64,000 nt of DNA from an uncultured Planctomycetales bacterium. Its GTDB lineage: Bacteria; Omnitrophota; Gorgyraeia; Gygaellales; Profunditerraquicolaceae. Shown piece after piece: positions 13,262 to 62,446 of this stretch; position 1 is the first letter of the stretch; the number at the start of each line of letters is the position of its first letter. The position numbers and the translations under genes are program-made. The stretch spans positions 195,693 to 259,692 of the forward strand of contig CAZRVK010000003.1 in NCBI GenBank assembly GCA_964603585.1, read 5' to 3'. Below the pieces are notes generated by a model, which did no database searches, was not told the origin of the DNA, and saw only the letters and a list, made by a program, of their open reading frames with translations.

Positions 13262-14194
13262 ATGGATAAATTTTGTCAGCCGAAGATTTATGGTATTGTG
13301 GGGTATCCGGTTAAACACAGTCTCTCCCCATTAATGCAGGCGGCAGCATTCAGAGCATTAAATATCAAGGCGGAATATAGGCTTTTTGAAAAACCCCCTG
13401 AGCAATTAGATGGTTTTTTACTAAAAGAGATCTTCGAACAAAATGTTTCCGGCCTCAATATTACAATCCCCCATAAAGTTAAAGCCCTGCAAATCCTCGA
13501 GAGTAATCCTCAAATCTTGAACCAAGATTTTCCTTATGTTGAGAGGGATAATTTAATAAACACAGAAGTCCTTTATGCCAAGATGGCCGGAGCAGTTAAT
13601 ACAATTCAAGTGTTTTCTAATGGTAAAATCGCCTATTTGAATACCGATTTATTAGGATTTCAAAGATCTTTAGAAAAAGACTTGAGATTTACTAGCTCTG
13701 GCAAGAATGCTTTAGTCCTTGGCTGTGGTGGAGCTGGAAGAGCAGTCATTGTTGGCTTGTTTCTTGATGGAATTGAGACTATTTATATTACCGATGTTAA
13801 TAATGATGTATTATCCAACGCAAAAGATCATTTTTTAAAATTCCCTGATCTGAATAAAAAGCTTGTATTTATCTCAAATGAAAAAATACCAGAAATAATA
13901 GGAGGATGCCATTTGCTTGTGAATGCTTCTCCTATTGGGATGAGGGAAGAGACGGGTTGCCTTATTGACAGTAAATTATTGCGTAAAGACTTATTTGTCT
14001 ATGATGTTGTTTATAATCGCCAAACTAAATTAGTTAGTGATGCGCTAAAAAATGGCTGTAATGCAGTGGGTGGATTAGGAATGCTTTTGTATCAGGGGGT
14101 TTTATCCTTAGAGTATTGGCTTGATCAAAAACTAAGGCCGGAAGTTGTTGAGATTATGCGCAGCGTTTTAAGTGAAGGGATAAAAAAATCATGA
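13262..14194 (+). CDS. aroE: shikimate dehydrogenase
   Basis: N-terminal IYGIVGYPVKHSLSPLMQ and GCGGAGRAV Rossmann motif. Noticeably more AT-rich and uses AGA Arg codons compared with neighbours. Confidence 0.8.
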   Translation: MDKFCQPKIYGIVGYPVKHSLSPLMQAAAFRALNIKAEYRLFEKPPEQLDGFLLKEIFEQNVSGLNITIPHKVKALQILESNPQILNQDFPYVERDNLINTEVLYAKMAGAVNTIQVFSNGKIAYLNTDLLGFQRSLEKDLRFTSSGKNALVLGCGGAGRAVIVGLFLDGIETIYITDVNNDVLSNAKDHFLKFPDLNKKLVFISNEKIPEIIGGCHLLVNASPIGMREETGCLIDSKLLRKDLFVYDVVYNRQTKLVSDALKNGCNAVGGLGMLLYQGVLSLEYWLDQKLRPEVVEIMRSVLSEGIKKS

Positions 14195-14997
14195 CCGAGA
14201 AAATAATTGTATTCATCTTTGGTTCTTTAGTCGGAAGCTTTCTTAATGTTTGTATCCATCGTATGCCTTTGGGTGAGTCTATTGTCAAGCCTCGTTCGCA
14301 TTGCCCTAAATGCAATAAGATGATCCCCTGGGCAGATAATATACCTTTTTTAAGTTATATCATTTTGCGCGGGAAATGCCGTTATTGTAAAACCCCGATC
14401 AGTTTACGTTATTTTGTGGTTGAGCTCGTCACCGCCCTGGCATTCTTGGGGTGTTTTATGCTCTACGGCCTAAGCTTTAACTTTTTCTTTTATCTTGTTT
14501 TTATCTGCGGGTTGATTGTTGCTACCTTTGTTGATATCCGGCACCGGATTATCCCCGATGAGATTTCCGTCGGCGGGATGGTGGCCGGGTTCATTTTAAG
14601 TTCGGCAAGCGGTTTAAAAGCAGGGGATTTTAGTTTTCACCCCATGCTTAATTCTTTTTTAGGGATCATCGTCGGCGGGGGGATCATTTATCTTACCGGG
14701 TTGATTTTTGACGTGATCTATTTTAAATTATTGAAACGTCCTCCGATCCAGGGTGAGACAGAATCCATGGGAGGAGGGGATGTAAAATTAATGGCGATGA
14801 TCGGGGCGTTTTTAGGCTGGAAGTGCGCATTGGTTACATTTTTTATGGCTCCTTTCTTTGGTTCGGTAGTAGGGGTTGTGAACCTGGTAACTAAAAAAGA
14901 CCATACGATCCCTTATGGGCCTTTTCTATCGTTGGCAGCAATACTGTCGATCTTCTGGGCGGATAAGATCATCGGGTTTGTTATCCCCCGGTATTGA
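14191..14997 (+). CDS. pilD: prepilin peptidase (A24 family)
   Basis: Tetra-Cys motif CPKC...CRYC plus polytopic membrane core. Start overlaps the aroE stop by 4 nt (ATGA). Confidence 0.85.
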   Translation: MTEKIIVFIFGSLVGSFLNVCIHRMPLGESIVKPRSHCPKCNKMIPWADNIPFLSYIILRGKCRYCKTPISLRYFVVELVTALAFLGCFMLYGLSFNFFFYLVFICGLIVATFVDIRHRIIPDEISVGGMVAGFILSSASGLKAGDFSFHPMLNSFLGIIVGGGIIYLTGLIFDVIYFKLLKRPPIQGETESMGGGDVKLMAMIGAFLGWKCALVTFFMAPFFGSVVGVVNLVTKKDHTIPYGPFLSLAAILSIFWADKIIGFVIPRY

Positions 14998-28147: not shown

Positions 28148-28196
28148 AAACGACCCTCTTATCAAGCTCTGAATTGGTAAGAGGGTCGTTTCTTTG
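28148..28196. terminator. bidirectional rho-independent terminator between the ferredoxin (+) and gspK-like (-) genes
   Basis: AAACGACCCTCTTA ... TAAGAGGGTCGTTT 14-bp stem with A/T runs on both sides. Confidence 0.8.
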
Positions 28197-28200
28197 TAAA

Positions 28201-31194
28201 TCACGAGTCAGGAAGGAAATCTGTATTAGGTATCTCGATCCATGAACCTACCGCAGTAGCCATGGGGTTCCCGCTTCCAGTTGAGCCGCTGGTGGCGAAA
28301 TTGGTTTCATAGGCATAATTATATTTAGGGTATAAGTAATATCCTTGTGAAGTGCCTGTCGGATAATTATAAGGGGAATAGTGAGGTAAATACCCGTGGG
28401 CATAATAGCCGTAATGGTAATAACCATAGGTATCATAGCCGGGTTCGGCGGCATATGTCCAAATGTTATCTTTGTTCTTGATCGAATAAGATAGAGGGAC
28501 CCATCCGCGGTAAATATCCTCCAGTTGGATAAAAGCGCCTGTTATGTTACGGGTTTTCTGCTGGCCATCTTGGGATATCCATCGTTCCAGCGTGTATCCA
28601 CGTGGATCATAAGGGGTGACTACCGCGGTGTTATAGATCACATCATGATCAACCCGGTTAGGCTGGGTTGATTCGGTGGCCAGATCATAATTTGTTTCTC
28701 CCGCATTTAAAAGGGCGCTTTGGCATGCGCCTGCTTCCGGATAAAGTTCGGGATTAAAGATCTGTTTTATATTATCCACCGTCCAAGAGCTGGGTAGAGT
28801 AATGTTGTATTTAGTCAAGAAATTCTTGACTGTCTGGGGTAAACTATCGCTTGAAGGGGTAATGCCTTTTTGGGTCAGATAAGTATCGAGGAAATACTGG
28901 CTTTTTAGTGAATGAGGATAGGAATTTTCTCCGACTTTCCAGTAGTTGTATGAAGAGATTTCCGCCAGATTATTGATACTGTTTATGTAATCCTCGAAAT
29001 TATCCGATACGGTATAGATCATTCTTTGCGAGCTGATCAGGGCGGCATTCCTCCACTGGTACTCTGAATCTGATCCTCCATGTGCTTGTTTGTAGCTTGT
29101 ATAGGCTTCGGTCTCTTTATCCCGGGAATAATCCAGGTTAAAACTGCCTTGGACATAAATATTGTGCGGGGTTACTACAGTTAATCCATTCTCCGGCAGT
29201 ATCCCGGCATTTTTTACCCTGACCGAGAAATCCCCTTGATAAATGTCATTGCTATCGGGATTTTCGATATAAATTACTCCGTTGAATTCCTGGCCATTGT
29301 CTTCAAGATAGGTTCTTAGTTTTTCCACATCGATATCGATCACTTTAGTCTTGCGCGCGTACTTCATATTATTCACATCGTTAAAGCGAGGGGAACTCCA
29401 ATAATATTCAGAAACCCCGGGTTGGCGCAATGGATTGAAGAATTCTGTAAAAGTTACTGCTCCGCAGGCTGTTAATTCTTCGGGGATATTCCAATCCCAA
29501 TAAGGAGGGACGTTGTTATAGGCCTCTGACAGCGCGTCGTTTACCCGCATATCAAATTCATTGAATAAGTCATCGGATATTTCTCCTGCTTCGTAGCGGT
29601 AATACATCTGGTCCCATATTTCACCCACACTATTTATGGTAAAGTTTATGGTTTCTCCATTGGAGAGGGTGATGGAATATGGTGTATTGGCCCATGCGGT
29701 ATATTCGGCAGTTTGGCCTTTGGTAAGTAGAATACCGCCCTCTTCGGATTTTTTCTTGTAATTACTTTCTAACTTCAGGGGGACCATATATGTGCCGCCG
29801 TTAGAACCGTCTTTTAGTATATCGGATAAAGGCATGGTTTGGGTTTGATTCGTGTCGGTTTGTGTGATCGATACCTGTTTGTCCTGCAGCCACGTGTTCC
29901 ATTCAGAGGATTGTTCCTTGGTGTTGAAGTATTTTACATCGATTATATCGCTTCCGGTGCGGTCATTACCGTAGACTAAATCGTCCCACCATTCGTGGTT
30001 TACATCAGACGGGGCATCCGCGATCCAGTTGCCGGTATCATTCAGGTTATACCAGGCACGGATGAATCTTTTGGCTAAATTACCGGTGGTGGCTGTATTT
30101 GCATCGGTGAATCCGTTGGTTTGTTTCCATGCCTCCCAGTTAAAAGCGCTGGGATCGGAAATAAAAGTATCATATTCGGCCTGGCTTAAAAGATAAGTTT
30201 TCTGTGTGCCTGCGCTGGGATTGCCCTGGCTAAACGCCTTTCCGGCCAGATCGCTGTTGGTTATTCTTACCGAAACAGTTTTTTCCTTAGAATCCTTTTC
30301 CCCGCTGTATTTATCCCACTGCCAGGTCCTGTCCAGTTCAGACGGTAACATTCCCGTGCCCCAATTTGTGCCCTCGAACTTTGCATTGGTCCCCCAGTTG
30401 AATTTACTGATAATCCCATAGCGAAAGTCAGAAGGGAAGGAAAAATCGAATGGGGGGGCGGTGTTTTGGATCATAGGGATCACGCCATCGATAGCAGTGG
30501 TCCCGTAATTCTTATCATAATAATATGGCGAGGTGTATTGGGAATTGTAGATCTGGAAATATCCGTTGTTTGCCGCGTTTGCCGTGCTTAATTCAAGCAG
30601 GTTCTTGAACACAGGGCTGCCCTTAAAGGTGATTGCTCCGTTTACATGTATTTTCCCATATCCTGATCCATCGAAAGTAGCTGTATCAAAAGTAGTGCTA
30701 TTAGGAAAGAAATAAAAATATTCAAAAAGAGAGTTTTTGCTTATCCGTAATTCAAGCGTGCGCGATATCCTTCCGGTGGGGGATTTACCCTGGGAGTGTA
30801 TTATTATAACCCCTGTTTCATTGCCTCCTGAATCGATCTCCGGGAATACTACGACATTGAAATGGTGTCCGCTAACGGAATATATCCCGGAGCTGTTTAT
30901 ACTGCCTCCCATTTGTACCTGGTAAGTGCTTGATGTTACAGGGTTAAGTGACAGCGGGTTGCCGCTCCAGTCATGAGTCAGCCATTTGTAGTCACTTAAC
31001 GATAGTTCGCCGTAGGCATAATTTATCCCTTCCTCCGCATGGTAGAAAGCATCTATTGAATCCTTTTCTGCCTGGGAGTTTTTGTATTCTGAAAACAGGC
31101 GGATGAATAAGGCGGAGGCGATCATGCTTAAAAAAAGCATTACCGTTATGGAAACCAGTAGTGCTACTCCTTTGGTGTTTTTTAGTTTGTTCAT
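28201..31194 (-). CDS. giant GspK/PilX-like minor pseudopilin (997 aa) with Tyr/Gly-rich C-terminus
   Basis: N-terminus KGVALLVSITVMLFLSMIASALF matches the GspK/PilX N-terminal helix. Last gene of an I-J-K-like operon. C-terminus is YGYYHYGYYAHGYLPHYSPYNYP. Confidence 0.55.
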   Translation of the reverse strand: MNKLKNTKGVALLVSITVMLFLSMIASALFIRLFSEYKNSQAEKDSIDAFYHAEEGINYAYGELSLSDYKWLTHDWSGNPLSLNPVTSSTYQVQMGGSINSSGIYSVSGHHFNVVVFPEIDSGGNETGVIIIHSQGKSPTGRISRTLELRISKNSLFEYFYFFPNSTTFDTATFDGSGYGKIHVNGAITFKGSPVFKNLLELSTANAANNGYFQIYNSQYTSPYYYDKNYGTTAIDGVIPMIQNTAPPFDFSFPSDFRYGIISKFNWGTNAKFEGTNWGTGMLPSELDRTWQWDKYSGEKDSKEKTVSVRITNSDLAGKAFSQGNPSAGTQKTYLLSQAEYDTFISDPSAFNWEAWKQTNGFTDANTATTGNLAKRFIRAWYNLNDTGNWIADAPSDVNHEWWDDLVYGNDRTGSDIIDVKYFNTKEQSSEWNTWLQDKQVSITQTDTNQTQTMPLSDILKDGSNGGTYMVPLKLESNYKKKSEEGGILLTKGQTAEYTAWANTPYSITLSNGETINFTINSVGEIWDQMYYRYEAGEISDDLFNEFDMRVNDALSEAYNNVPPYWDWNIPEELTACGAVTFTEFFNPLRQPGVSEYYWSSPRFNDVNNMKYARKTKVIDIDVEKLRTYLEDNGQEFNGVIYIENPDSNDIYQGDFSVRVKNAGILPENGLTVVTPHNIYVQGSFNLDYSRDKETEAYTSYKQAHGGSDSEYQWRNAALISSQRMIYTVSDNFEDYINSINNLAEISSYNYWKVGENSYPHSLKSQYFLDTYLTQKGITPSSDSLPQTVKNFLTKYNITLPSSWTVDNIKQIFNPELYPEAGACQSALLNAGETNYDLATESTQPNRVDHDVIYNTAVVTPYDPRGYTLERWISQDGQQKTRNITGAFIQLEDIYRGWVPLSYSIKNKDNIWTYAAEPGYDTYGYYHYGYYAHGYLPHYSPYNYPTGTSQGYYLYPKYNYAYETNFATSGSTGSGNPMATAVGSWIEIPNTDFLPDS

Positions 31195-31203
31195 TTTAGC
31201 CTC

Positions 31204-31809
31204 TCAATTCCTTAGCCATACCCTTGATTTTAATACGGAACTCATGTTACTCCCTTTATTTGGGTTATTCCCGGTAATGATGATTTGTATGGAATTAGGG
31301 CTGTAAGTCAAGTTCGGCACCCCGGAGAACTCCACACATTTTATATTATTAGCTAATATCCTTTGTGAAAGCATTATTTTATCTGGGCCTAAGACCTTCC
31401 TAACCAATTGCCCGGTCGTCTTGCCCTCTGGAACGATTACTTCATAGGATATCCACTGGTTTTGTGCCAGGTCTGATCCCCAGATCAAACTGCCGGTAGT
31501 ATTTAACTGGACTTTTTGCCCGGAATAAAATGGCCGCTGAAAACGTATTCTTGAACCGGAGTAAGCGCGGATACCGGAATCATCCAGGATCTCGATATGT
31601 GCGGAGTTGCTAAGGCGTATCTCCTGTACCATGCGTTGCAACGCGGTCCTTGCTCCTTCTTGACTTTTGGTTTTAGCTTCTCCTATTTCCCATGAGGACA
31701 TCCCGATGCTGAAAATAGTGAATACCGCTCCTATTACGATAGCAAATATACTTACCGATACCATCGCTTCGATCAAGGTAAAACCTCTTTTTGGCCAGGT
31801 TTTTCTCAT
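31204..31809 (-). CDS. GspJ/PilW-like minor pseudopilin (prepilin N-terminal methylation domain)
   Basis: KRGFTLIEAMVSVSIFAIV class III signal peptide. 201 aa. Confidence 0.7.
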   Translation of the reverse strand: MRKTWPKRGFTLIEAMVSVSIFAIVIGAVFTIFSIGMSSWEIGEAKTKSQEGARTALQRMVQEIRLSNSAHIEILDDSGIRAYSGSRIRFQRPFYSGQKVQLNTTGSLIWGSDLAQNQWISYEVIVPEGKTTGQLVRKVLGPDKIMLSQRILANNIKCVEFSGVPNLTYSPNSIQIIITGNNPNKGSNMSSVLKSRVWLRN

Positions 31810-31812
31810 TTT

Positions 31813-32307
31813 TTAGTCCATGTTTACGATATCAGTTTGTATGAACGCCGGAGATTCCAGTTCGCCACTCGAATTGACCGTTTCCCCGGTATCGCTTATT
31901 CCATTTAAATTTAGATCCGTGCCTATTATGCGGTTGTTTGTATCTCTCCAGCAAACCAGTGTTCTTATCCGGTATATTTTAATAGGCCCAGTAATTTGTT
32001 TTACATAAGATACCCCTTTAAAATTGGAAAGTAAGGCGCCGTTGTCCGCGTAAACATTAAAACTCCGGTTATTATATTGTATAAGCTGATCGAAGGATAT
32101 CTTTTGTGTGTCATCAGTGGGGTGGGTATGCGATTTGATACGTTCCATTTGATCCTGGCAGGCGTTTATGGCTATGCCGAAATTATGGGTTCCACCGATC
32201 CCTTTAAGGTATTGGGAAACAAATGATATTGTTCCCGCAAAAGAGGTAGTGATCAGTGCCGTGGCGATCATGACCTCGATTAAGGTTATTCCTTTTTCTT
32301 TTTTCAT
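31813..32307 (-). CDS. GspI/PilV-like minor pseudopilin (start probably at M11, 32307; track ORF extends to 32337)
   Basis: KGITLIEVMIATALI prepilin motif with AGAAGGGA RBS before ATG 32307. ATG 32337 lies inside a terminator-like U-run. Confidence 0.65.
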   Translation of the reverse strand: MKKEKGITLIEVMIATALITTSFAGTISFVSQYLKGIGGTHNFGIAINACQDQMERIKSHTHPTDDTQKISFDQLIQYNNRSFNVYADNGALLSNFKGVSYVKQITGPIKIYRIRTLVCWRDTNNRIIGTDLNLNGISDTGETVNSSGELESPAFIQTDIVNMD

Positions 32308-32325
32308 TAATCCCTTCTTTCCATT

Positions 32326-32356
32326 AAAAAGCCCCATTCCTTATAAGGAGTGGGGC
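32326..32356 (-). terminator. intrinsic-terminator-like hairpin + U-run (in minus orientation) immediately upstream of the pseudopilin operon
   Basis: Minus strand reads GCCCCACUCCUUAUAAGGAAUGGGGC followed by UUUUUA. A second hairpin lies at 32363-32388 (AAACCCATA...TATGGGTTT). Confidence 0.5.
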
Positions 32357-32638
32357 AATAATAAAACCCATACTGATCTCTATGGGTTTAAGCTTAAAAG
32401 GGTATCTGATGTTCGGCAACTGGCTGCCATGACTAAATGTGTTTTTTAGCCTTAGGCCCTTTAGCTTTGCGTCCTATCCTTTAGGATAGTTTGCCCCAGC
32501 CATTTCTGGCGGCCCGTTCCTTGTTTAAAGGAACGGGTTTATCATGAATTGATATATATTTACAAATAAAGTATAACATATTGTAAATTCGTTTCAATGA
32601 CTATCGTTTAGGCTAAACCCCGGAGGAACAAAAAGTAT

Positions 32639-32648
32639 GGGGGGGGGG
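32639..32648. repeat. G10 homopolymer tract (C10 on minus strand) in the ppiD-like/pseudopilin intergenic region
   Basis: gtatgggggggggggaatatc read from the sequence. Unusual for this ~40% GC window. Confidence 0.8.
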
Positions 32649-32705: not shown

Positions 32706-34127
32706 TTATCGCGGAGTTAGCGCATAGGGCCTGGCGTTTTTTTGTAATTCATCGATTAACTTGAGGAATTTCTCTTTTTTCTTTTGGGATAGCAGTTTAT
32801 CGGTAAATTCTTCTTTTTCGGCTTGAAATTTCTTGTCATCAAAAGGTGTGATCGATTTTAATTTAATAATGTAAAGCCCCGCGGGCATTTCTATAATATC
32901 ACTGTGTTTATCTTTTTCCAGGCCATGAGCAACCAGCCAGAATTTATCTGAAGCCCCGATCCCTTCAATATAGCTGGAATATTTGAACATACCGGTTGAG
33001 CCGGCCTTTAATTCATATTCTTTTGCGGCTTTTTCAAAGGTTGTCAGGTTCTTAAAGCATTGATCCATTTTCTCCCGCGCTAAGGTTTTTGATTTTGTGG
33101 CCAAAAAAGCTTCTTTTACCCTTTCCTTGACAGAGGTGAATTCTGGGATATAAGGCTCTTTTCTTTCTTTGACGCGCAAGATGTAATATGCGTTGTCCAT
33201 ACGCAAGGGGGGAAGGTACTGGCCTGTTTTTAATCCGGTAAGCATATTTAATACCGGGGTTGCCCATCCGATCCCCGGGATCGGCCCGGTTTCCGGGAAA
33301 AAACCTGTTTCTTTGATGGCTAAGGAGTTTTCTTTGGCTACCTCTGTAAAAGGGGATTTTTTGTTCAGTTTGGCGTATATTTTATTTATTTTATCTTTGG
33401 CGGATTTTTCGTCTTTATCCGGTAAAACAAATTCTACGTATTCCAAATTGAAAGAAAGAGGAAGCCTGAACTGCAGAGTGTTCTTAAGGAAATAATCATT
33501 GATCTGGTCATCATTTACGGAAATGGTCTTTGAAATATCGCTGTAGATAGCGGCGATATAATCGATGCTTAATTCCTGGGTGCTTTCTTTATATTTTTCT
33601 TCGACTTCTTTATCGGTTGTTTTTATATCACGGGTCACGTCCTTATAAAGCTTGGCAATGAGGAGGTTCTGGCGGGTTTCTTCTTCAAATACCCTTGGTT
33701 GGGTATGGAAGACGAAGTTGACCATCTGGTTGTATATACGGTTATCAAAAACCCCTTTATTTGCAAAAAATGGGTAACTTTCGATCTGCGTAATCACCTC
33801 TTTATCGGTTACGCTTAAACGGCGCTTTTTTGCTTCAGCAAGCAATACCAGCCTTTCCCAGGCCTGTGCCTCCAGCCCAAGAGATTTCTCGATCTCATAG
33901 AAGTTCTCGCCGAACTGCATCAAACCCTGGTTCTTTACTGCGTTCAAGGAGTCACGGAACTCTATCGGGGTGATCCTTTTCCCGGAGATAACCCCGGTTA
34001 TTTGGACCGTTTTTTTATCTCCGATCATGCTTGCCGAGCCCCAAAGGACAAAGGCAGGCAAAACTAATATTGCTAAGACGATCCAGATCTTTTTGGCTGT
34101 TTTTTTATTGCGTAATTTGTTTAGCAT
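32706..34127 (-). CDS. periplasmic chaperone / peptidyl-prolyl isomerase of the PpiD/SurA family (tentative)
   Basis: N-terminal membrane anchor plus SurA_N-like region. 473 aa. Family-level call only. Confidence 0.5.
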   Translation of the reverse strand: MLNKLRNKKTAKKIWIVLAILVLPAFVLWGSASMIGDKKTVQITGVISGKRITPIEFRDSLNAVKNQGLMQFGENFYEIEKSLGLEAQAWERLVLLAEAKKRRLSVTDKEVITQIESYPFFANKGVFDNRIYNQMVNFVFHTQPRVFEEETRQNLLIAKLYKDVTRDIKTTDKEVEEKYKESTQELSIDYIAAIYSDISKTISVNDDQINDYFLKNTLQFRLPLSFNLEYVEFVLPDKDEKSAKDKINKIYAKLNKKSPFTEVAKENSLAIKETGFFPETGPIPGIGWATPVLNMLTGLKTGQYLPPLRMDNAYYILRVKERKEPYIPEFTSVKERVKEAFLATKSKTLAREKMDQCFKNLTTFEKAAKEYELKAGSTGMFKYSSYIEGIGASDKFWLVAHGLEKDKHSDIIEMPAGLYIIKLKSITPFDDKKFQAEKEEFTDKLLSQKKKEKFLKLIDELQKNARPYALTPR

Positions 34128-45949: not shown

Positions 45950-46780
45950 ATGTCGAAGAAAGCGTTGACTTTACTGGAGATCATGGTGGTAGTGGTAGTA
46001 GTAGGTATTATCGCAAGCCTGGGGGTTCCAGTCTATAATAATATCCAGGAAGAAGCTATGGCAAAGATAGATCGTACGAACCTTTTTGTCATAAAAAGCG
46101 CTTTGGATATTTATATGATGGAACATGACGGCCTTCCCGGTAATTTATCCCAGATCCCGCAAAAATATTTCGATAATGCCTATGCCGTTATTATGGATTC
46201 TACTGATGGCTGGAAGATAAGATTAGCGCAGTTTATACTGGATCAAACCGATAAAAAACTGGCATATGCCTTTGATTTTCCCAGGGATCATCACCGCGGC
46301 GGCCGGTCTCCGACGCAGCCGGGCAATCCTCCGGCAGCTCCTGTTTCTCCGCCAGCGACCACTCCGGGTGTTCCCCCGGCAGCTACCCCTGTTGTTGCAC
46401 CCCCTGCTCCGGGAGGAGTTCCGGCAGACCAGTTCTTAGCGGATGAAGTGGTAAAGGGTGATAAGACAGTGCTTACTGACCCGGCGCGAAAACATCAAAA
46501 TCCGGGCTCAACATTTGTTTCTTACGGCCTGAATGCCGGCTTAAGAGGGATCAGCAGAAAAGATTATTACGATGATACTTTGTATCCTCCTAATAGCATT
46601 ATCATTGCAAATTGCAATAGTTCTTTATTCAACGGCGCAAACTTTGCCTTTAGGCACAAAAGGCACAGGGCCTTTCAGTCCGCAGTATCTTATGCGCAAT
46701 ATATTACTAAAGATTCCATAGTGCATTCGATCGATACATTAGGGCGGATCAAGGATTACCCCAAGGCCTGGGGCAGGTGA
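45950..46780 (+). CDS. GspG-like (major pseudopilin-type) prepilin-domain protein with Pro-rich C-terminal extension
   Basis: KALTLLEIMVVVVVVGII class III signal-like helix with Ala, not Gly, at the -1 position. A GspG-like KSALDIYMMEHDGLPGNL motif. Pro/Ala/Thr-rich tract PTQPGNPPAAPVSPPATTPGVPPAATPVVAPPAPGGVP. Confidence 0.6.
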   Translation: MSKKALTLLEIMVVVVVVGIIASLGVPVYNNIQEEAMAKIDRTNLFVIKSALDIYMMEHDGLPGNLSQIPQKYFDNAYAVIMDSTDGWKIRLAQFILDQTDKKLAYAFDFPRDHHRGGRSPTQPGNPPAAPVSPPATTPGVPPAATPVVAPPAPGGVPADQFLADEVVKGDKTVLTDPARKHQNPGSTFVSYGLNAGLRGISRKDYYDDTLYPPNSIIIANCNSSLFNGANFAFRHKRHRAFQSAVSYAQYITKDSIVHSIDTLGRIKDYPKAWGR

Positions 46781-46817
46781 TATTTGCTCAAAGGGTATTA
46801 CTAAGCAAAAGCCTTAA

Positions 46818-49127
46818 TTGAAGAATATAAGAGAGCATATTAAGTTCGGTGTTTTGGCGGTTGGGGCTTTTTTTGCCGCATATTTGCTGTTATTATCTTT
46901 CCCGGCGTTTTCTTCTCATCTCAATGATTTTTCTTACCGTTACGTATATTCCTTTTCATCTAAAGCAAAGCATAAGCCTGCCCGGATAATTGGTATCGAG
47001 GTCGATAACTATTCCCTGGAGAAGATATCTCAACGGTATCCTTTTAAGAGAGAGGTTTATGCCCGCCTTTTGCATTTCCTAAACAGCCAGAAGGTCAATA
47101 CCGTGGGGTTTGATTTTATCTTTTCAGGGGAGTCGGAGGATACTGCCGATGATATCCTGTTCGAAGAGGCGCTGAAAACAAGTTCCTGCAGGGTGATCCT
47201 GGCATATCGCATTAACCCGGAGAATTACCTGCCCAGTTTACCTTTTGCGGCATTTAAGAAGGCAAGTTATGGATTGGGGTTAATAAATACGCCTGCAGAT
47301 CAAGATAACCTTATGCGGCGTGTGCGGGCATATGTGGAATTGCCTGACGGGGTGCATTACTCCTTTGCGGTTATGGTCTCTTCGGCATTCTTAAACAGGA
47401 ATGCACAGGAGTTGGTTAGTGAATTGCCTCTTTTGAAAGACAAGACCTTTTTGGTGAATTTTCTTATCAAGCCAAAGGATATCATTCGCGTTAGTATGTA
47501 TGATGTCCTGGAGAACCCGGAAAAGTTAAAGAAAACCCATGGTAATGGTTTCTGGAATGATTCTATTGTGGTGGTTTATCCTGCGGCCGAGATCCTTCAT
47601 GACAGCACGGCAACTCCCTTAGGGATCATCTCTGGAGGTATTTTGCATGTGAATGGCATAAATACGATCCTTATTCAAAGGCCGATACGGCAAGTAAATT
47701 ATCTGCTTTTGCCGTTTTTTGCCTTATCCTGCCTGGTTGTATTATACCTGTTAAGGCATTTGGAATTTATTTACGGCATGTTGTTTACTTTGGGGCTGGT
47801 TTTCCTCCAGTTTTGGTGTTTGGTCATCCTGCATCTTAAAGGGATGGTATTTGACTATTCTTTTCTGGTCATGTTTAATCTGGTGTTTTTTATAGCCGGC
47901 AGTTTTTATAAATACATTAGTTTTCTGGCCCAGTTCTTCCGGATCCGGATAAAGGCTACGATGGATCCGTTACGCAATGTTTTTACTTTGCGGTATTTTT
48001 ATTTCCGGATGGAGTTGGCCCTCAAGCAAATATATTTTTCTAAGAACCTGTTTCTGGTGTTCATTCGGCTGGATTCCTTTAAATTCGCTACCTCCGGCAT
48101 GGATTTAGACCGCCTCAAAATAGTCTGGGAAAGGATACACCAGGTAATAAATTTGCGGAATAGTTTCTGGTCCACTTATTCTTCCGAAGAGCTGATCGGT
48201 TGCCTGGTAAGTTCCCCGGATAAAATAAAAGCCCTGGTTGTGGCTTTAAGGAATAATTTAGGGTATGTTTTACAGGAGCAGTCAGTTAAGGCGGAGATCA
48301 AACTGGGTTTTTTACGTTTCCATAAGGCGTATCCGGTAAGAGAATTGCTTTTTGTTTTATCCGAAGAGATGAAAAAAAAGGGGGAGGAGCTGGTTAATTT
48401 CCGGGATGCGGATATGGAATATCTTTTACATTCCTCTTATCCTAAGGTTAAAGAAACAGATAAGATTTTGGAGAGCCTTGAAGAGGATATTGAGGAGAAG
48501 AACCGTCAGCTGTTGGTTTTAATCGAGAATTTGAATTTAGAGCATACTAAAACAAAAGAGGCATTTTTGGGGATCATCGCATCTTTAGCCAAAGCGCTTG
48601 AAGCACGCGACCCTTACACCGAAGGCCATTCGCAGAGAGTGACTAACTATGCCTTGCTCATGGCGGATAAACTGGGCTGGCAGGATGAATTAAAAGAAAA
48701 GCTTAATAGTGCGGCGCTTTTGCATGACCTGGGAAAAATCGGCATCCCAGACAGTATTTTGCATAAAAAAGGCATACTTACGGATGAGGAATATGACTTC
48801 ATCAAGAAGCATGAGGTGATCTCCATAAAAATACTTGAGCCGCTTAAGGAGATCAAAGATATTTTGCCATGGATTATGCACCATCATGAGAAATGGGATG
48901 GCTCGGGGTATCCGCACGGTTTGGGGGGCAACAGTATCCCCTTAGGCGCGCAAATTATAGCTTTAGCAGACACTTTTGACGCTATTACAACCGGGAGGGA
49001 TTATAAAAAGGCCCTTTCTGTAGAAGATGCCTTAAATGAAATCATCAAGTTCAAAGGTTCGCAGTTCAATCCCCAGCTGGTGGATATTTTTGTAGAGGCG
49101 ATGAGAGCAAACCATCCGCAAAAATAA
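46818..49127 (+). CDS. membrane sensor with periplasmic CHASE2-like domain and C-terminal HD-GYP phosphodiesterase domain
   Basis: C-terminus HDLGKIGIP ... HHEKWDGSGYPHGL (HD-GYP). N-terminal region is CHASE2-like and is followed by several TM helices. Confidence 0.7.
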   Translation: MKNIREHIKFGVLAVGAFFAAYLLLLSFPAFSSHLNDFSYRYVYSFSSKAKHKPARIIGIEVDNYSLEKISQRYPFKREVYARLLHFLNSQKVNTVGFDFIFSGESEDTADDILFEEALKTSSCRVILAYRINPENYLPSLPFAAFKKASYGLGLINTPADQDNLMRRVRAYVELPDGVHYSFAVMVSSAFLNRNAQELVSELPLLKDKTFLVNFLIKPKDIIRVSMYDVLENPEKLKKTHGNGFWNDSIVVVYPAAEILHDSTATPLGIISGGILHVNGINTILIQRPIRQVNYLLLPFFALSCLVVLYLLRHLEFIYGMLFTLGLVFLQFWCLVILHLKGMVFDYSFLVMFNLVFFIAGSFYKYISFLAQFFRIRIKATMDPLRNVFTLRYFYFRMELALKQIYFSKNLFLVFIRLDSFKFATSGMDLDRLKIVWERIHQVINLRNSFWSTYSSEELIGCLVSSPDKIKALVVALRNNLGYVLQEQSVKAEIKLGFLRFHKAYPVRELLFVLSEEMKKKGEELVNFRDADMEYLLHSSYPKVKETDKILESLEEDIEEKNRQLLVLIENLNLEHTKTKEAFLGIIASLAKALEARDPYTEGHSQRVTNYALLMADKLGWQDELKEKLNSAALLHDLGKIGIPDSILHKKGILTDEEYDFIKKHEVISIKILEPLKEIKDILPWIMHHHEKWDGSGYPHGLGGNSIPLGAQIIALADTFDAITTGRDYKKALSVEDALNEIIKFKGSQFNPQLVDIFVEAMRANHPQK

Positions 49128-56658: not shown

Positions 56659-57378
56659 ATGCGCTATATATTCGGTCCTTTAAAGTCCAGAAGACTGGGA
56701 AATTCTTTAGGTATTAACCTTACTCCTTATAAGGTTTGTACATTCGATTGTATTTACTGCCAGTTAGGCAAAACCACCCAAAAAACACAGACACGCCGGG
56801 AATATTTCCCCGCCTCGGAGATCTTAGAGGAGATAAGGAACTGGTTTCAGCATAATCCTGATCAGGCGAGTACCCTGCAATATATTACATTTTCCGGTTC
56901 AGGCGAGCCGACCCTCAATGTTAGGATCGGAGAGCTGATTTCCGGAATAAGAAAGATCACTAATGTGCCGGTTGCAGTGATAACCAATGCTTCGTTGTTA
57001 AATGATCCCTTGGTGCGTAGTGCCTTATTGACGGCGGATTTGATCATACCTTCTTTAGATGCAGTAGTCCCCGAGGTTTTCCAGGAGATAGACCAGCCGC
57101 AAGAGGGAGTAAGAATAGAAGATATCATTAACGGTTTGATCAGTTTCCGCAAGGAGTTCAGAGGCCAGATCTGGCTGGAAGTGATGCTGGTAAGCGGGAT
57201 AAATGATGACCTGCGTTATATTAAGAAGCTCAAAGAGGTAATAGACCAGATTGATCCGGACAAGATCCAGATCAATTCTCCTGTGCGGGTCGGCACCGAG
57301 GCGGGTATTTCTTCTCCGGATAGGCAAAAACTTGAGAAGATAAAAGAGATCCTCGGGGAAAACTGTGAGATCGTTTGA
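56659..57378 (+). CDS. radical SAM protein (core domain only, no SPASM extension)
   Basis: CTFDCIYC CxxxCxxC cluster motif near the N-terminus. 239 aa. Confidence 0.75.
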   Translation: MRYIFGPLKSRRLGNSLGINLTPYKVCTFDCIYCQLGKTTQKTQTRREYFPASEILEEIRNWFQHNPDQASTLQYITFSGSGEPTLNVRIGELISGIRKITNVPVAVITNASLLNDPLVRSALLTADLIIPSLDAVVPEVFQEIDQPQEGVRIEDIINGLISFRKEFRGQIWLEVMLVSGINDDLRYIKKLKEVIDQIDPDKIQINSPVRVGTEAGISSPDRQKLEKIKEILGENCEIV

Positions 57379-60491: not shown

Positions 60492-60672
60492 TTTCCTGCT
60501 CCTTTCTAAGAATACGCCTTAAAGACATTATACCGCTGATAGTTTAAATAGCAATAATTTAGCTTACTATAATTTCTGACAGGGACGATAGTGGAATAAA
60601 GTCAGAAAAAAACAGAATCACCCCATTTACATTTATAGTCCCGAATATTATTATAATAAAGTAATAAAGGGT

Positions 60673-60695
60673 AATAAAGGGGACGTTTCTATTTT
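60673..60695 (+). repeat. conserved 23-bp cassette motif, copy 1 (AATAAAGGGGACGTTTCTATTTT), preceded by a partial copy at 60663-60671
   Basis: Exact match to the family consensus. Confidence 0.8.
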
Positions 60696-60793
60696 TTTGT
60701 TGCTGGGATAGAGTATTAGATATAGCACTTATAATTTGCTATTTAGGATCGGTAGTTAGTATGTTATTTAGCCTGTTGAATACTAAATGATGT

Positions 60794-61036
60794 TTGAAAG
60801 TGGAGGTGGATGTGACGAAAGGAATAAAGTCATTTTTGAAGAAAAAGGATGGCAATAGGCAGAAAAGACAATGGAGCGATCCCATACTGATAAGGTTAGT
60901 GCAATTGAAGCATGATGAACTGATACTTGCTGGATGCAAGTATGACGCTTTGTGGGTGGATCCATCTACAAGCAACCCGGGTTGTATGATTGGCGGAATA
61001 TGCGGTTCTCCTTGCAGCACTCTTTCGGCTTCATAA
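60794..61036 (+). CDS. Cys-rich peptide family member P1 (start uncertain: TTG 60794 or GTG 60812)
   Basis: ...RQWSDPILIRLVQLKHDELILAGCKY...GCMIGGICGSPCSTLSAS shares the W-x-x-P-x-LI-x-LV, CK and terminal SAS pattern with P2-P7. Confidence 0.45.
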   Translation: MKVEVDVTKGIKSFLKKKDGNRQKRQWSDPILIRLVQLKHDELILAGCKYDALWVDPSTSNPGCMIGGICGSPCSTLSAS

Positions 61037-61147
61037 ACAGAGAACGAGGTGGCAATTATATCCTGGGGGCAGGCATTTTCAGCCCAGATTTCTTATTTAT
61101 TTCTAAATGTTTTGACAAGGTATCTTTATAAAGTATAATAATTGTTA

Positions 61148-61170
61148 AATAAAGGGGACGTTTCTATTTT
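61148..61170 (+). repeat. conserved 23-bp cassette motif, copy 2
   Basis: Exact AATAAAGGGGACGTTTCTATTTT, 47 nt upstream of the PepSY-like gene. Confidence 0.8.
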
Positions 61171-61216
61171 CTTATCCAAATTTAGCTGATTTTAATTTAT
61201 AACAAAGGAGGAGAGG

Positions 61217-61570
61217 ATGAGGTATTTAGCAGTAACAGGCGTGATCGCGGCCTTTTTATTCTCAATGGTATCTTTTGGGTATGCCCAGGATAAGAGTAAG
61301 GACGAAGTTATTTCTATCGCTATGGAAGCTTTAAAAGGGCAGAATATCCAATTAGAAGATGTGAGTGTTATTTATGATGAAGGCGGCAAGCTTTGGAATG
61401 AAAAAGTCGGTTATTTAGCAGAGGAAGATAAATCGCCAAACCATGGTATTTTAAGAAAAGGATTCTTGAAAAATTATAAAATAGTCTTATTCGATTTTAA
61501 AGAGCCGCTCCCGGATATTTGGGTATTTATCGATAAAGATACCGGAGAAGTCCTGGAAGTCTATAGGTAA
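61217..61570 (+). CDS. secreted PepSY-like small protein (117 aa)
   Basis: GGAGGAG RBS and signal peptide. Two motifs resembling PepSY (VISIAMEALKGQNIQLEDVSVIYDEGG ... FIDKDTGEVLEV). Confidence 0.45.
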   Translation: MRYLAVTGVIAAFLFSMVSFGYAQDKSKDEVISIAMEALKGQNIQLEDVSVIYDEGGKLWNEKVGYLAEEDKSPNHGILRKGFLKNYKIVLFDFKEPLPDIWVFIDKDTGEVLEVYR

Positions 61571-61591
61571 TAAAGGGTGGCGTTCCTGTTC
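61569..61591 (+). repeat. degenerate copy of cassette motif (AATAAAGGGTGGCGTTCCTGTT), copy 3
   Basis: 14/23 positions conserved. Overlaps the PepSY stop and precedes P2. Confidence 0.5.
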
Positions 61592-61621
61592 CTTTAAAAC
61601 AGGGAAGGGCCTGTGAAGATT

Positions 61622-61810
61622 ATGGGCTATAAGATAAGAAAACAGTGGAAGCAGCCTAATTTTATAGTATTAGTACGAATAAAAAAGCAGGAGGCAGTTC
61701 TTGCGGTCTGCAAGCTTTATTCGAACAGTGATGGTCCGGAGAACGTTTCATTTTCTGGATGTGGAGAGGCTAACCCATTTGATTTTTGCTATGATGACGC
61801 CCTGTCATGA
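61622..61810 (+). CDS. Cys-rich peptide family member P2 (alt. GTG start 61613)
   Basis: MGYKIRKQWKQPNFIVLVRIKKQEAVLAVCKLYSNSDGPENVSFSGCGEANPFDFCYDDALS. Confidence 0.6.
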   Translation: MGYKIRKQWKQPNFIVLVRIKKQEAVLAVCKLYSNSDGPENVSFSGCGEANPFDFCYDDALS

Positions 61811-61876
61811 CCAGTGATAATTATCGTTTATTTTTGCATACATATGGACGGGATGTTTCGAGTAAAAAGGCAGGGC

Positions 61877-61899
61877 AATAAAGGGGACGTTTCTATTTT
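61877..61899 (+). repeat. conserved 23-bp cassette motif, copy 4
   Basis: Exact consensus. Ends 7 nt before ATG 61906. Confidence 0.8.
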
Positions 61900-61905
61900 T
61901 TAGAG

Positions 61906-62112
61906 ATGGAATATGGCATGAATTATAAAATAAAAAAGAGCTGGAAGCAGCCTGCGCTGATACGGTTGGTAAGAGAAAGTAAGGAGGAGCGGGTACTTGT
62001 AACCTGCAAACTAGGAGTTGGTGTTGCAGTAGTTGGTCCTGATGTGTTGTTTGATTCGTGTATGCTGGGTGCAGAGTGTGATTTTAATTGTGACTCGTTT
62101 GCGGCATCTTAG
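61906..62112 (+). CDS. Cys-rich peptide family member P3 (alt. start ATG 61918 giving MNYKIKK...)
   Basis: M(EYG)MNYKIKKSWKQPALIRLVRESKEERVLVTCKLGVGVAVVGPDVLFDSCMLGAECDFNCDSFAAS. Confidence 0.6.
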   Translation: MEYGMNYKIKKSWKQPALIRLVRESKEERVLVTCKLGVGVAVVGPDVLFDSCMLGAECDFNCDSFAAS

Positions 62113-62154
62113 GGAGAAATGAACCAGAACTTAGGAACTTGAGTTTACCGTGTA

Positions 62155-62220
62155 GCAATAAAGGGGACGTTTCTATTTTCTTAGCGATCAATAAAGGGGA
62201 CGTTTCTATTTTCTTAGCGA
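62155..62220 (+). repeat. tandem duplication of a 33-bp unit carrying the cassette motif (copies 5 and 6 at 62157-62179 and 62190-62212)
   Basis: caataaaggggacgtttctattttcttagcgat appears twice consecutively. Confidence 0.85.
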
Positions 62221-62232
62221 TGAAAATACGAT

Positions 62233-62427: not shown

Positions 62428-62446
62428 TTTCAGTAATAAAGGGGAT

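What the first reader, a model, noticed from the sequence alone, without database searches (positions are those of the whole stretch)
28201..32307. GspI-GspJ-GspK-like minor pseudopilin operon whose GspK/PilX-like member is a 997-aa giant with a Tyr/Gly-rich C-terminal tail
Three minus-strand genes carry class III (prepilin) N-termini in the canonical I-J-K order. They are G|ITLIEVMIA (174 aa), G|FTLIEAMV (201 aa), and a PilX/GspK-type N-terminus KGVALLVSITVMLFLSMIASALF on a 997-aa protein. Canonical GspK/PilX proteins are about 150-350 aa. This one has about 700 extra residues of unknown fold. It ends in the low-complexity Tyr-rich segment YGYYHYGYYAHGYLPHYSPYNYPTGTSQGYYLYPKYNYAY. That suggests a pilus-tip adhesin or surface-display module. 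The prepilin peptidase (14191-14997) and a GspG-like major subunit (45950-46780) are encoded elsewhere in the window. No secretin, ATPase or platform gene is nearby.
Basis: partly seen in the sequence, partly recalled or inferred. Interest (0 to 1): 0.6.

Follow-up and report, generated by a model that had tools for sequence, protein, structure and literature searches.

The report
Riboswitch-controlled pilus-tip operon with giant cap

Summary
Three tightly coupled minus-strand genes encode two prepilins with Glu5 (164/174 aa and 201 aa) and a 997-aa protein. An independent assembly and full-length homologues show that the 997-aa ORF is not a chimera.

The giant's N-terminus is homologous to PilX_N. 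The family keeps Gly at -1 and never has Glu at +5, which marks the capping GspK/PilX/ComGG class. No GspI, GspJ, GspK or PilX model reaches its cut-off, and the machinery type (T4P or T2SS) is not settled.

The giant belongs to an unannotated family of about 800 representatives. Every member that carries a source name is from Omnitrophota. The pilin-pilin-giant cassette recurs in 10 distinct loci besides the window. Paralogues within one genome are about 90% identical except for a hypervariable patch near residues 500-600.

A confident AlphaFold model (pLDDT 86) shows a pilin-like head plus a body of about 820 aa. Foldseek finds no significant match in the PDB.

New here is a full-length c-di-GMP-I riboswitch (72.6 bits) with a promoter and an expression platform directly upstream. 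It is absent from the relatives examined.

The closest precedents are Thermus ComZ and cyanobacterial PilX/HpsA. I rate it a new variant of a known kind, of moderate interest.

The parts
32570..32597 (-). Promoter-like site (TTGAAA, 16 nt, TG-TATACT) upstream of the riboswitch
   Evidence: 10 of 12 consensus matches with an extended -10 TG. This is a consensus match only. The number of such sites in the region does not exceed the shuffled expectation.
32412..32505 (-). c-di-GMP-I (GEMM-I) riboswitch aptamer in the 5' leader of the operon
   Evidence: RF01051, 72.6 bits against a gathering score of 35, E 2.6e-12 for the whole window, covering model positions 1-87 of 87. The same element is on the independent contig L006.
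32390..32409 (-). Switching segment. Its CCCUUUU (32396-32402) can pair either with the 5' strand of aptamer helix P1b or with the Shine-Dalgarno sequence.
   Evidence: ViennaRNA gives two near-isoenergetic folds, -67.2 kcal/mol (aptamer-like fold, SD paired) and -66.8 kcal/mol (aptamer disrupted, SD free). The regulatory role is inferred.
32364..32389 (-). Leader hairpin 1 (AAACCCAUA...UAUGGGUUU followed by a U-rich tail)
   Evidence: terminator-like scan. It forms in all computed folds.
32326..32356 (-). Leader hairpin 2, terminator-like (GCCCCA-UCCU / AGGA-UGGGGC followed by UUUUU). It covers the upstream in-frame ATG at 32337.
   Evidence: Searches give the pair list 32356-32351 with 32331-32336 and 32349-32346 with 32338-32341. 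The U-run 32326-32330 is read from the sequence.
32312..32318 (-). Shine-Dalgarno sequence (AGAAGGG) for the ATG at 32307
   Evidence: Read from the sequence. The probability of being unpaired falls to 0-0.23 when the switching segment is forced to pair downstream.
31813..32307 (-). Minor pilin 1 (164 aa from ATG 32307; leader MKKEKG|ITLIE with Glu5). It carries an EF-hand-like loop, DLNLNGISDTGE.
   Evidence: N_methyl 25.4 bits; best named hit gspI, 22 bits, below the 44.35 cut-off; alignment A4 of 10 orthologues.
31204..31809 (-). Minor pilin 2 (201 aa; leader MRKTWPKRG|FTLIE with Glu5)
   Evidence: N_methyl 29.8 bits; gspJ 19 bits, below the 64.85 cut-off; Verru_Chthon cassette protein C 25.4 bits; alignment A5.
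28201..31194 (-). Giant PilX/GspK-class cap protein (997 aa)
30730..31194 (-). Residues 1-155 of the giant: class III-like leader (KG|VALLV, no Glu5), a 62-residue alpha-1 helix and a beta-sheet head, together a pilin-like domain
   Evidence: AF2 secondary structure: helix 5-66 and strands between 74 and 155. The top Foldseek PDB hits are pilins, but they are weak: Thermus PilA2 at E 0.22, ComZ at 0.32, S. sanguinis PilA at 0.94. hhalign to a PilX_N protein.
29395..29712 (-). Residues about 495-600 of the giant, equivalent to the hypervariable patch seen between paralogues within one genome
   Evidence: the L001 paralogues are 88-98% identical in many 40-aa windows but 15-18% identical at about 514-594. 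The L002 pair is 8-12% identical at 548-627. Indel-rich columns in alignment A1.
28309..28428 (-). Tyr/Gly-rich segment (residues 923-962)
   Evidence: 18 Tyr in 60 residues; pLDDT below 50 only at residues 935-952; enrichment specific to this clade.
28150..28189 (.). 12-bp hairpin between the convergent giant and ferredoxin genes, a likely bidirectional terminator
   Evidence: Sequence read (ACGACCCTCTTA...TAAGAGGGTCGT). The scan tool did not call it because the loop is 16 nt. This assignment is inferred.
32706..34127 (-). PpiD/SurA-like membrane-anchored PPIase, the conserved co-oriented upstream neighbour of the cassette
   Evidence: SurA_N_3 9.2e-24, Rotamase_2 4e-17. It sits 23-80 nt upstream of pilin 1 in L001, L008, L010 and L011. 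Compare the Rotamase_2 PPIase reported next to Omnitrophota secretion loci.
14191..14997 (+). Prepilin peptidase (A24), the presumed processing enzyme, encoded 13 kb away

Best explanation
The locus is a single transcription unit: promoter, c-di-GMP-I riboswitch, minor pilin 1, minor pilin 2, giant PilX/GspK-class pilin, terminator.

The three proteins most likely form the tip (priming) complex of a type IV pilus-like filament. The two Glu5-bearing pilins would stack beneath the giant. The giant lacks Glu5 and so can only sit at the distal end. Its body of about 820 residues would then sit on the filament tip as a plug and adhesin, as proposed for Thermus ComZ and cyanobacterial PilX/HpsA. A patch near residues 500-600 that is hypervariable between paralogues is the likely ligand-facing surface. 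The A24 peptidase elsewhere in the window would cleave after the conserved Gly.

In this lineage only, expression responds to c-di-GMP through the leader RNA. The computed alternative pairings suggest that ligand binding frees an anti-SD segment that then blocks the ribosome-binding site, which would make it an OFF switch.

Shown: the genes, the class III N-termini, the PilX_N homology, the absence of Glu5, the cassette conservation, the riboswitch identity and the mosaic variability. Inferred: tip location, adhesin role, T4P rather than T2SS, and the direction of the switch.
For: - Gene structure and coupling.
- N_methyl above threshold in both small pilins.
- The family N-terminal consensus KG-hydrophobic...AFY.AE.GI.YAY.
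- Gly at -1 in 93 of 99 family sequences and Glu at +5 in 0 of 104.
- hhalign at 94% probability to a protein carrying Pfam PilX_N.
- Weak but consistent hits of family members to PilX_N, ComGG, GspK and HpsA.
- The cassette of two Glu5 pilins plus the giant recurs in 10 distinct loci besides the window, in either gene order.
- One family member lies beside PilM_2 and a secretin.
- The AF2 model (pLDDT 86, pTM 0.82) has an alpha-1 helix and a beta-sheet head, and its best PDB matches are pilins, including ComZ.
- Paralogues show a mosaic pattern with a hypervariable patch.
- Precedents for a bulky GspK-like tip pilin: PMC6561018 and bioRxiv 10.64898/2026.02.12.705559.
- The riboswitch scores 72.6 bits over the full-length model, and the leader has bistable folds.
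- A prepilin peptidase and an HD_5 (HD-GYP-type) protein are in the window.
Against: - The window protein itself matches no Pfam, NCBIfam or PDB sequence model.
- All Foldseek matches are non-significant (best E 0.22). A ComZ-like beta-solenoid is therefore not demonstrated.
- I could not inspect model coordinates, so I cannot say whether the body is inserted within the pilin fold or appended to it.
- The window holds no major pilin, ATPase, platform or secretin gene.
- A fourth (GspH/FimU-type) adaptor pilin is missing from the cassette.
- The riboswitch is absent from all 11 other relatives' loci scanned, so it is not an intrinsic part of the system.
- The terminator-like leader hairpin forms in both computed states, so the switching logic is unresolved. 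Class I riboswitches are known to act in either direction (PMC6366702).
Confidence: 0.6

Rival explanations
1. It is a true type II secretion pseudopilus tip (GspI-GspJ-GspK). It would act as the piston head of a T2SS that secretes folded proteins.
For: - The best named NCBIfam hits run in the order gspI, gspJ, GspK.
- JGI labels a homologue 'type II secretory pathway pseudopilin'.
- Omnitrophota loci with gspD/E/F-like genes, a Rotamase_2 PPIase and class III signal-peptide genes have been described.
- The ComZ pilin domain is closest to GspK.
Against: - All Gsp model scores are far below their cut-offs and cover mainly the N-terminal helix: 22 against 44.35, 19 against 64.85, and E 0.022 in 2 of 50 members.
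- There is no Pfam T2SSK, T2SSI or T2SSJ hit.
- There is no GspH or GspG partner and no T2SS gene in the window.
- A cap of about 1000 aa is hard to reconcile with a periplasmic pseudopilus.
- The one family member found next to machinery genes sits by PilM_2 and a secretin.
Confidence: 0.15
2. The giant is not a filament subunit. It would be a signal-anchored or secreted surface protein, for example a cell-wall-binding or cell-wall-degrading effector, that merely shares a pilin-like anchor. The two pilins would form a short pseudopilus that exports or presents it.
For: - The body has no fold match and is much larger than any characterised tip pilin.
- Some family members carry dockerin domains (3 of 50).
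- Very large Omnitrophota proteins are proposed to be extracellular effectors delivered by T2SS/T4P-like systems.
- The conserved PpiD-like chaperone next door suggests a demanding periplasmic folding step.
Against: - The conserved Gly at -1, the PilX_N homology, the alpha-1 helix plus beta-sheet head, and the strict pairing with two Glu5 pilins are what a tip complex predicts.
- No catalytic domain is detected in any library.
Confidence: 0.18
3. The 997-aa ORF is an artefact: an assembly chimera or a frameshift fusion of two genes.
For: None found.
Against: - An identical 997-aa protein lies on an independently assembled contig.
- Full-length collinear homologues of 947-1057 aa occur at the same syntenic site in several genomes.
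- The AF2 model is confident across the whole chain.
Confidence: 0.01
4. The riboswitch match is a decayed or non-functional relic and the operon is expressed constitutively or under other control. Alternatively, the riboswitch is an ON switch that induces the tip complex at high c-di-GMP.
For: - The riboswitch is absent from all relatives examined.
- The P1a loop is UAAA rather than the consensus GAAA.
- The terminator-like hairpin forms in both computed states.
- In C. difficile, c-di-GMP induces type IV pili, and class I switches can act in either direction.
Against: - The score is 72.6 bits, twice the gathering score, with all uppercase consensus blocks retained and the full model covered.
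- A purpose-built complementary segment links the aptamer to the Shine-Dalgarno sequence.
Confidence: 0.3

Closest known systems
ComZ with PilA2 of Thermus thermophilus (competence pilus tip; PDB 6QVI and 6QVF; PMC6561018)
   Same: Both have a pilin-like N-terminal domain of the GspK type fused to a very large extra domain that can only fit at the filament tip. Both are encoded beside small minor pilins. ComZ and PilA2 are the top, though non-significant, Foldseek matches.
   Different: ComZ is about 550 aa with a triangular beta-solenoid of about 380 residues. This protein is 997 aa with a mixed alpha/beta body of about 820 residues that Foldseek does not match to ComZ (TM about 0.14). There is no evidence here for DNA binding or competence. 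ComZ is not riboswitch-controlled.
Cyanobacterial PilX / HpsA-like 'PilX_EPS' minor pilins (NCBIfam NF038301; bioRxiv 10.64898/2026.02.12.705559)
   Same: These are PilX-class subunits lacking Glu5 with a bulky inserted domain, proposed to plug the tip in organisms without PilY1. They co-occur with PilV/PilW-type partners. Two of 50 family members hit the HpsA model weakly.
   Different: The window protein does not hit the HpsA model. It comes from a different phylum (Omnitrophota). The cassette has only two partner pilins. The body fold is not shown to be a solenoid.
GspI-GspJ-GspK pseudopilus tip of the T2SS (PDB 3CI0) and PilV-PilW-PilX of T4aP
   Same: The gene order small-medium-large matches, with two Glu5 subunits and a cap lacking Glu5. 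The N-terminal helix is homologous to PilX_N.
   Different: GspK is about 325 aa with an alpha-helical insert, and PilX is about 160-200 aa. No Gsp or Pil family model is met. No GspH/FimU adaptor is present.
PilY1/PilC tip adhesins of proteobacterial T4aP
   Same: They are of similar size (about 1000 aa) and are encoded in the minor pilin operon. The proposed role as tip plug and adhesin is the same. A Ca-binding-type loop is present in the complex, here in pilin 1.
   Different: PilY1 is not a pilin. It has a Sec signal peptide and a C-terminal beta-propeller. No PilY1/Neisseria_PilC domain was detected here.
c-di-GMP riboswitch control of type IV pilus genes (C. difficile Cdi-2-4 upstream of pilA1; PMC6366702)
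   Same: A c-di-GMP-sensing leader RNA lies directly upstream of a pilin gene.
   Different: The C. difficile element is class II, an ON switch, and controls the major pilin. The element here is class I, sits before the tip-complex genes, is in a diderm candidate phylum, and its direction is predicted (not shown) to be OFF.

Membership tests
Type IV pilin / pseudopilin superfamily (class III signal; Pfam PF07963 N_methyl) | A short basic leader ending in Gly, then a hydrophobic helix with Glu at +5 | tested here: met
   Pilin 1 scores 25.4 bits and pilin 2 scores 29.8 bits against a gathering score of 21.2. The motifs G|ITLIE and G|FTLIE are read.
PilX_N (Pfam PF14341) / GspK-class capping pilin | The N-terminal domain matches the PilX_N model | tested here: inconclusive
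   The window protein has no Pfam hit at E up to 1. Two of 50 family members hit PilX_N (best 2.5e-4). The family profile aligns residues 3-64 to the PilX_N segment of P0154 at 94% probability, E 1.2e-7.
PilX_N (Pfam PF14341) / GspK-class capping pilin | Gly at -1 is retained but Glu5 is absent | tested here: met
   Gly in 93 of 99 sequences and Glu at +5 in 0 of 104 in alignment A2.
T2SS GspK (Pfam T2SSK; NCBIfam NF037980) | The globular domain matches the GspK model | tested here: not met
   There is no hit for the window protein. Only 2 of 50 family members hit, at E 0.022.
T2SS GspI (TIGR01707) and GspJ (TIGR01711) | The score reaches the equivalog cut-off | tested here: not met
   gspI scores 22 against 44.35, and gspJ scores 19 against 64.85 and covers only HMM positions 1-57. 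Profiles A4 and A5 match only N-terminal helices in the PDB.
ComZ / cyanobacterial PilX type (pilin fold with an inserted beta-solenoid) | A beta-solenoid is inserted between the penultimate and last strands of the pilin sheet | tested here: inconclusive
HpsA (NCBIfam NF038301) | Match to the HpsA model | tested here: not met
   The window protein has no hit. Two of 50 family members hit, with a best E of 1.6e-3.
PilY1/PilC tip adhesin | A C-terminal PilY1/Neisseria_PilC beta-propeller domain | tested here: not met
   No Pfam family at E up to 1.
Verru_Chthon cassette (TIGR02596, TIGR02598, TIGR02599, TIGR02600) | Proteins reach the subfamily cut-offs | tested here: not met
   Pilin 2 scores 25.4 bits against 256.5 for cassette protein C, over the N-terminal 57 residues only.
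c-di-GMP-I riboswitch (Rfam RF01051) | The covariance-model score is above the gathering threshold over the full aptamer | tested here: met
   72.6 bits against 35, model positions 1-87 of 87, E 2.6e-12.
c-di-GMP-I riboswitch (Rfam RF01051) | Binds c-di-GMP and changes expression of the downstream gene | not testable with these tools
   Only thermodynamic folding was possible.
Type IV pilus tip complex (functional membership) | Assembled by a T4P machine and located at the filament tip | not testable with these tools
   There are no machinery genes in the window. The only indirect evidence is one family member next to PilM_2 and a secretin and the literature.

The most novel reading that the evidence does not exclude
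The giant PilX-class proteins would be interchangeable host- or prey-recognition heads on the type IV pili of ultra-small, host-dependent Omnitrophota. Each would carry a new fold of about 820 residues with a recombining hypervariable patch. Genomes holding several cassettes could then switch tip specificity. In this lineage the choice would be gated directly by c-di-GMP through a class I riboswitch, making a second-messenger-controlled 'tip swap' that governs attachment to hosts.
Probability: 0.2. Interest if true: 0.75.

Novelty: new variant of a known kind. Interest (0 to 1): 0.5.

Why it matters
Omnitrophota are abundant, uncultured, mostly ultra-small bacteria thought to live as predators or parasites. 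How they recognise partners is unknown.

This locus defines a large family with no annotation: about 800 representatives at 50% identity, and every member that carries a source name is labelled 'hypothetical protein' from Omnitrophota. The family extends the ComZ/HpsA idea of a bulky PilX/GspK-type subunit replacing PilY1 as the pilus tip plug and adhesin. It extends that idea to a new phylum and apparently to a different body fold.

The hypervariable patch gives a concrete candidate binding surface. The riboswitch gives a directly testable regulatory input. It may be an uncommon case of a c-di-GMP riboswitch placed before tip-complex genes rather than a major pilin gene, but I did not survey this systematically. 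It also fits earlier hints that c-di-GMP governs Omnitrophota surface machinery.

Tried and rejected
- Pfam, NCBIfam and PHROGs scans of the giant gave nothing.
- Profile searches of PDB sequences with A1 and A3 gave nothing beyond an N-terminal helix match to Geobacter PilA-N.
- The first AF2 run on a 5-sequence alignment was useless (pLDDT 42). It succeeded only with 50 family members.
- Foldseek against the PDB and BFVD gave no significant hits.
- The word-indexed homologue search with the 104-sequence profile returned only 4 proteins. With the pilin 2 profile it returned only unannotated Omnitrophota proteins, so it gave no help on GspJ against PilW.
- The search for related loci failed with A3 (too diverse). 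With A1 it found only 2 genome loci.
- Rfam scans of the relatives' loci (12 loci in all; L006 repeats the window's own sequence) found no riboswitch in the other 11. I therefore dropped the idea that the riboswitch is a conserved part of the cassette.
- The 'enforce aptamer' constraint in ViennaRNA did not change the fold. The ON/OFF call therefore rests on two alternative minimum-energy structures, not on a proper ligand-bound model.
- I considered and rejected a chimera or frameshift, a PilY1 homologue, a Verru_Chthon cassette member, and GspG identity for 45950-46780.

Full report
OBSERVATION. The minus strand carries three ORFs exactly as described: 28201-31194 (997 aa), 31204-31809 (201 aa) and 31813-32337 (174 aa). 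Every quoted peptide string is present. The genes are separated by 3 nt and 9 nt, and a GAGG lies before the giant's ATG, so they form one translationally coupled operon. Both small proteins pass Pfam N_methyl (29.8 and 25.4 bits against a gathering score of 21.2). They read G|FTLIE and G|ITLIE, which are class III signals with Glu5.

The upstream ATG at 32337 lies in the 3' arm of a terminator-like hairpin and has no spaced Shine-Dalgarno sequence, whereas AGAAGGG precedes 32307. An independent gene call also gives 164 aa.

The chimera or frameshift refutation test fails. An identical 997-aa protein is encoded on an independent Logan contig. Homologues of 36-54% identity align over the full length.

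SURROUNDINGS. Family scans of nearly all ORFs of at least 120 aa show housekeeping genes of a diderm: BamA, Skp, LpxD, LpxC-FabZ, LpxA and LpxI. They also show a genuine A24 prepilin peptidase at 14191-14997. There is no secretin, ATPase or platform gene.

The supposed GspG-like gene at 45950-46780 has only a sub-threshold N_methyl match (17.8 bits), Ala at -1 and a Pro-rich linker. It is pilin-like but is not shown to be a major subunit.

The organism belongs to Omnitrophota. Close homologues come from 'Candidatus Omnitrophica' MAGs, and the window is syntenic with them over more than 20 kb.

THE GIANT AND ITS FAMILY. The word-indexed search found only 5 relatives. An exhaustive HMMER search with their alignment found 795 cluster representatives at E up to 1e-3 and 153 at E up to 1e-10. 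Most are 700-1100 aa, and the first 250 or so residues are the most conserved. Every member that carries a name is 'hypothetical protein [Candidatus Omnitrophica/Omnitrophota]'.

The N-termini share the consensus n-K-K-G-(V/I/F)-x-L-I, then a hydrophobic stretch, then AFY.AE.GI.YAY.E...W.TH. In a 104-sequence alignment, Gly occupies -1 in 93 of 99 sequences, Lys occupies -2 in 73, and Glu never occupies +5. Established pilin biology says that loss of Glu5 marks the distal capping subunit (GspK, PilX, ComGG). The preprint read restates this.

The window protein itself matches no Pfam, NCBIfam or PHROGs model. Two of 50 family members hit PilX_N, two hit ComGG, two hit GspK and two hit HpsA, all weakly. 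The family profile reaches P0154, a protein NCBI names 'PilX N-terminal domain-containing pilus assembly protein', which passes Pfam PilX_N (33 bits against 25.5). hhalign aligns window residues 3-64 to that segment at 94% probability, E 1.2e-7. I take the N-terminal domain to be a PilX_N homologue. Membership of GspK proper is not met.

STRUCTURE. AlphaFold failed with 5 sequences (pLDDT 42). With 50 family members it gave a confident model (pLDDT 86, pTM 0.82).
- Residues 5-66 form one long helix.
- Residues 74-155 form a beta-sheet. Together with the helix this is a pilin-like lollipop.
- The remaining 820 or so residues mix runs of short regular strands (159-215, 616-730, 852-915) with helical subdomains (313-612, 733-840).
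- The chain ends in a conserved strand (978-988, motif SW.EI).
- Only residues 935-952 inside the Tyr-rich segment are disordered.

The Tyr-rich segment is partly conserved among close homologues. Its enrichment is specific to this clade: 19% Tyr in the last 100 residues against a family median of 7%. The whole family is Tyr-rich at about 6.7%.

CASSETTE CONSERVATION. Two Glu5 pilins plus a PilX_N-like giant recur in 10 distinct loci besides the window (L006 repeats the window's own sequence and is not counted).
- At the same chromosomal site, the order is PpiD-like PPIase, pilin, pilin, giant, converging on ferredoxin, rubrerythrin and POR. This is seen in L001, L008, L010 and L011, and partly in L005, L006 and L007.
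- Elsewhere the order is giant, pilin, pilin, next to a two-component system (L013, and L002 in the other order), or without one (L014).
- One member lies beside PilM_2 and a secretin (L015).
- L001 holds three giants and two pilin pairs in tandem. L002 holds two giants.

Paralogues within a genome are mosaics. The L001 995-aa and 960-aa proteins are 88-98% identical in many 40-residue windows, but only 15-18% identical at about 514-594, 28% at 790-829 and 35% at 317-355. The L002 pair drops to 8-12% at 548-627. Such a localised hypervariable patch, equivalent to window residues about 495-600, is what one expects of a ligand-facing surface under diversification.

The two small pilins could not be typed. 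gspI and gspJ are the best named hits, but they score far below the cut-offs and align mostly over the N-terminal helix. Orthologue profiles hit only pilin N-terminal helices in the PDB. The homologue search returned only unannotated proteins.

Pilin 1 carries a near-canonical EF-hand loop, DLNLNGISDTGE, conserved as D.NLNG.LDSGED in close orthologues.

THE RIBOSWITCH. The 368-nt spacer upstream of pilin 1 contains a full-length c-di-GMP-I aptamer at 32412-32505 on the operon strand. It scores 72.6 bits against a gathering score of 35, E 2.6e-12, and covers model positions 1-87 of 87.
- A promoter-like site with an extended -10 lies at 32597-32570.
- Two hairpins follow the aptamer. The first is at 32389-32364. 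The second is stronger, at 32356-32331, and is followed by UUUUU.
- Folding gives two near-isoenergetic states. In one (-66.8 kcal/mol), a segment at 32390-32409 pairs with the 5' strand of aptamer helix P1b, which breaks the aptamer and leaves the SD free. In the other (-67.2 kcal/mol), an aptamer-like fold forms and the segment's CCCUUUU pairs with the SD AGAAGGG.
- Ligand binding should favour the second state, so I predict an OFF switch. Confidence is low. The terminator-like hairpin forms in both states, and class I switches act in both directions (PMC6366702).
- The element is absent from the 11 other relatives' loci scanned. Where the site is syntenic, the PPIase-pilin spacer there is only 23-80 nt. 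It is a lineage-specific regulatory insertion, whereas other lineages place a two-component system next to the cassette.
- A CHASE2 plus HD_5 (HD-GYP-type) protein in the window shows that c-di-GMP signalling is present.
- Links between c-di-GMP and Omnitrophota surface systems (PilZ, GGDEF), a Rotamase_2 PPIase and small class III-signal genes next to T2SS/T4P-like loci have been reported.

INTERPRETATION. The best reading is a tip (priming) complex of a T4P-like filament. Its Glu5-less cap carries a very large tip-exposed body, functionally like ComZ with PilA2 in Thermus and the solenoid-bearing PilX/HpsA of cyanobacteria, which are proposed to replace PilY1 as the tip plug. T4aP genes are almost universal in Omnitrophota, which favours T4P over T2SS, but the window cannot settle this.

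The rivals are a genuine T2SS GspIJK tip, and a pilin-anchored surface effector that is exported rather than polymerised. Artefact is excluded.

VERDICT. The kind, a bulky PilX/GspK-type tip pilin, is known. This is a new, unannotated family from Omnitrophota with an unmatched body fold, a hypervariable patch and, here, c-di-GMP-I riboswitch control. I rate it a new variant of a known kind, interest about 0.5.

Noticed in passing
window 61600-63650 (+), with repeats across 60650-63680: No ORF of 150 aa or more exists in 60500-64000. Instead there is a tandem array of at least six paralogous small genes (56-68 aa). They share the N-terminus M.YKIKK.WKQP.(F/L)I.LVR...ERVLV.CK and have variable Cys-rich C-termini, which looks like a RiPP precursor family. 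A conserved 33-nt box, AATAAAGGGGACGTTTCTATTTTCTT, recurs through the array in 9 copies. A radical SAM gene lies at 56659-57378.
   Followed up: partly
window 32639-32648: A homopolymer of 10 G (10 C on the operon strand) lies about 40 nt upstream of the promoter-like -35 of the pilin operon. The independent Logan contig L006 ends about at this tract. It could be a slippage-prone tract or just an assembly break point.
   Followed up: no
window 45950-49127 (+): A 276-aa pilin-like protein (KKA|LTLLEIMVVV, Ala at -1, Pro-rich linker, N_methyl below threshold) is followed directly by a CHASE2 plus HD_5 (HD-GYP-type, probable c-di-GMP phosphodiesterase) membrane sensor. A similar KKALTLLE pilin-like gene precedes a 900-aa pilin-like protein with only a faint precomputed Pfam Beta_helix hit in L002.
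   Followed up: partly
window 31813-32307 (pilin 1), residues about 130-141 of the 164-aa form: An EF-hand-like calcium-binding loop, DLNLNGISDTGE, is conserved as D.NLNG.LDSGED in close orthologues. It is missing from one L001 paralogue and from the distant L013 and L014 orthologues. It recalls the Ca sites of PilY1 and GspK.
   Followed up: no
window 32706-34127 (-), and L001, L008, L010, L011: A PpiD/SurA-like membrane-anchored PPIase (Rotamase_2) is the invariant co-oriented upstream neighbour of the cassette, 23-80 nt away in relatives. This matches the 'conserved Rotamase_2 PPIase' reported beside Omnitrophota secretion loci. It may be a dedicated folding chaperone.
   Followed up: partly
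L002 3494-4534 (-): The ORF of an OmpR-type response regulator runs on into a PilX_N-like segment (GMALLMVLLTTILITGL...FYLADAGIKRAM) of about 120 aa. This is either a fusion or two genes merged by the ORF listing. It sits in a second pilin cluster next to the giant cassette.
   Followed up: no
window 32512-32540 (-): A 10-bp GC-rich hairpin (CCCGUUCCUU-UAAAC-AAGGAACGGG) lies between the predicted transcription start and the aptamer. It has no U-tail and its role is unknown.
   Followed up: no
Family members in alignment A3: Three of 50 giant-family members carry a Dockerin_1 domain (best E 9.5e-5), which suggests Ca-dependent docking modules on some tip proteins.
   Followed up: no
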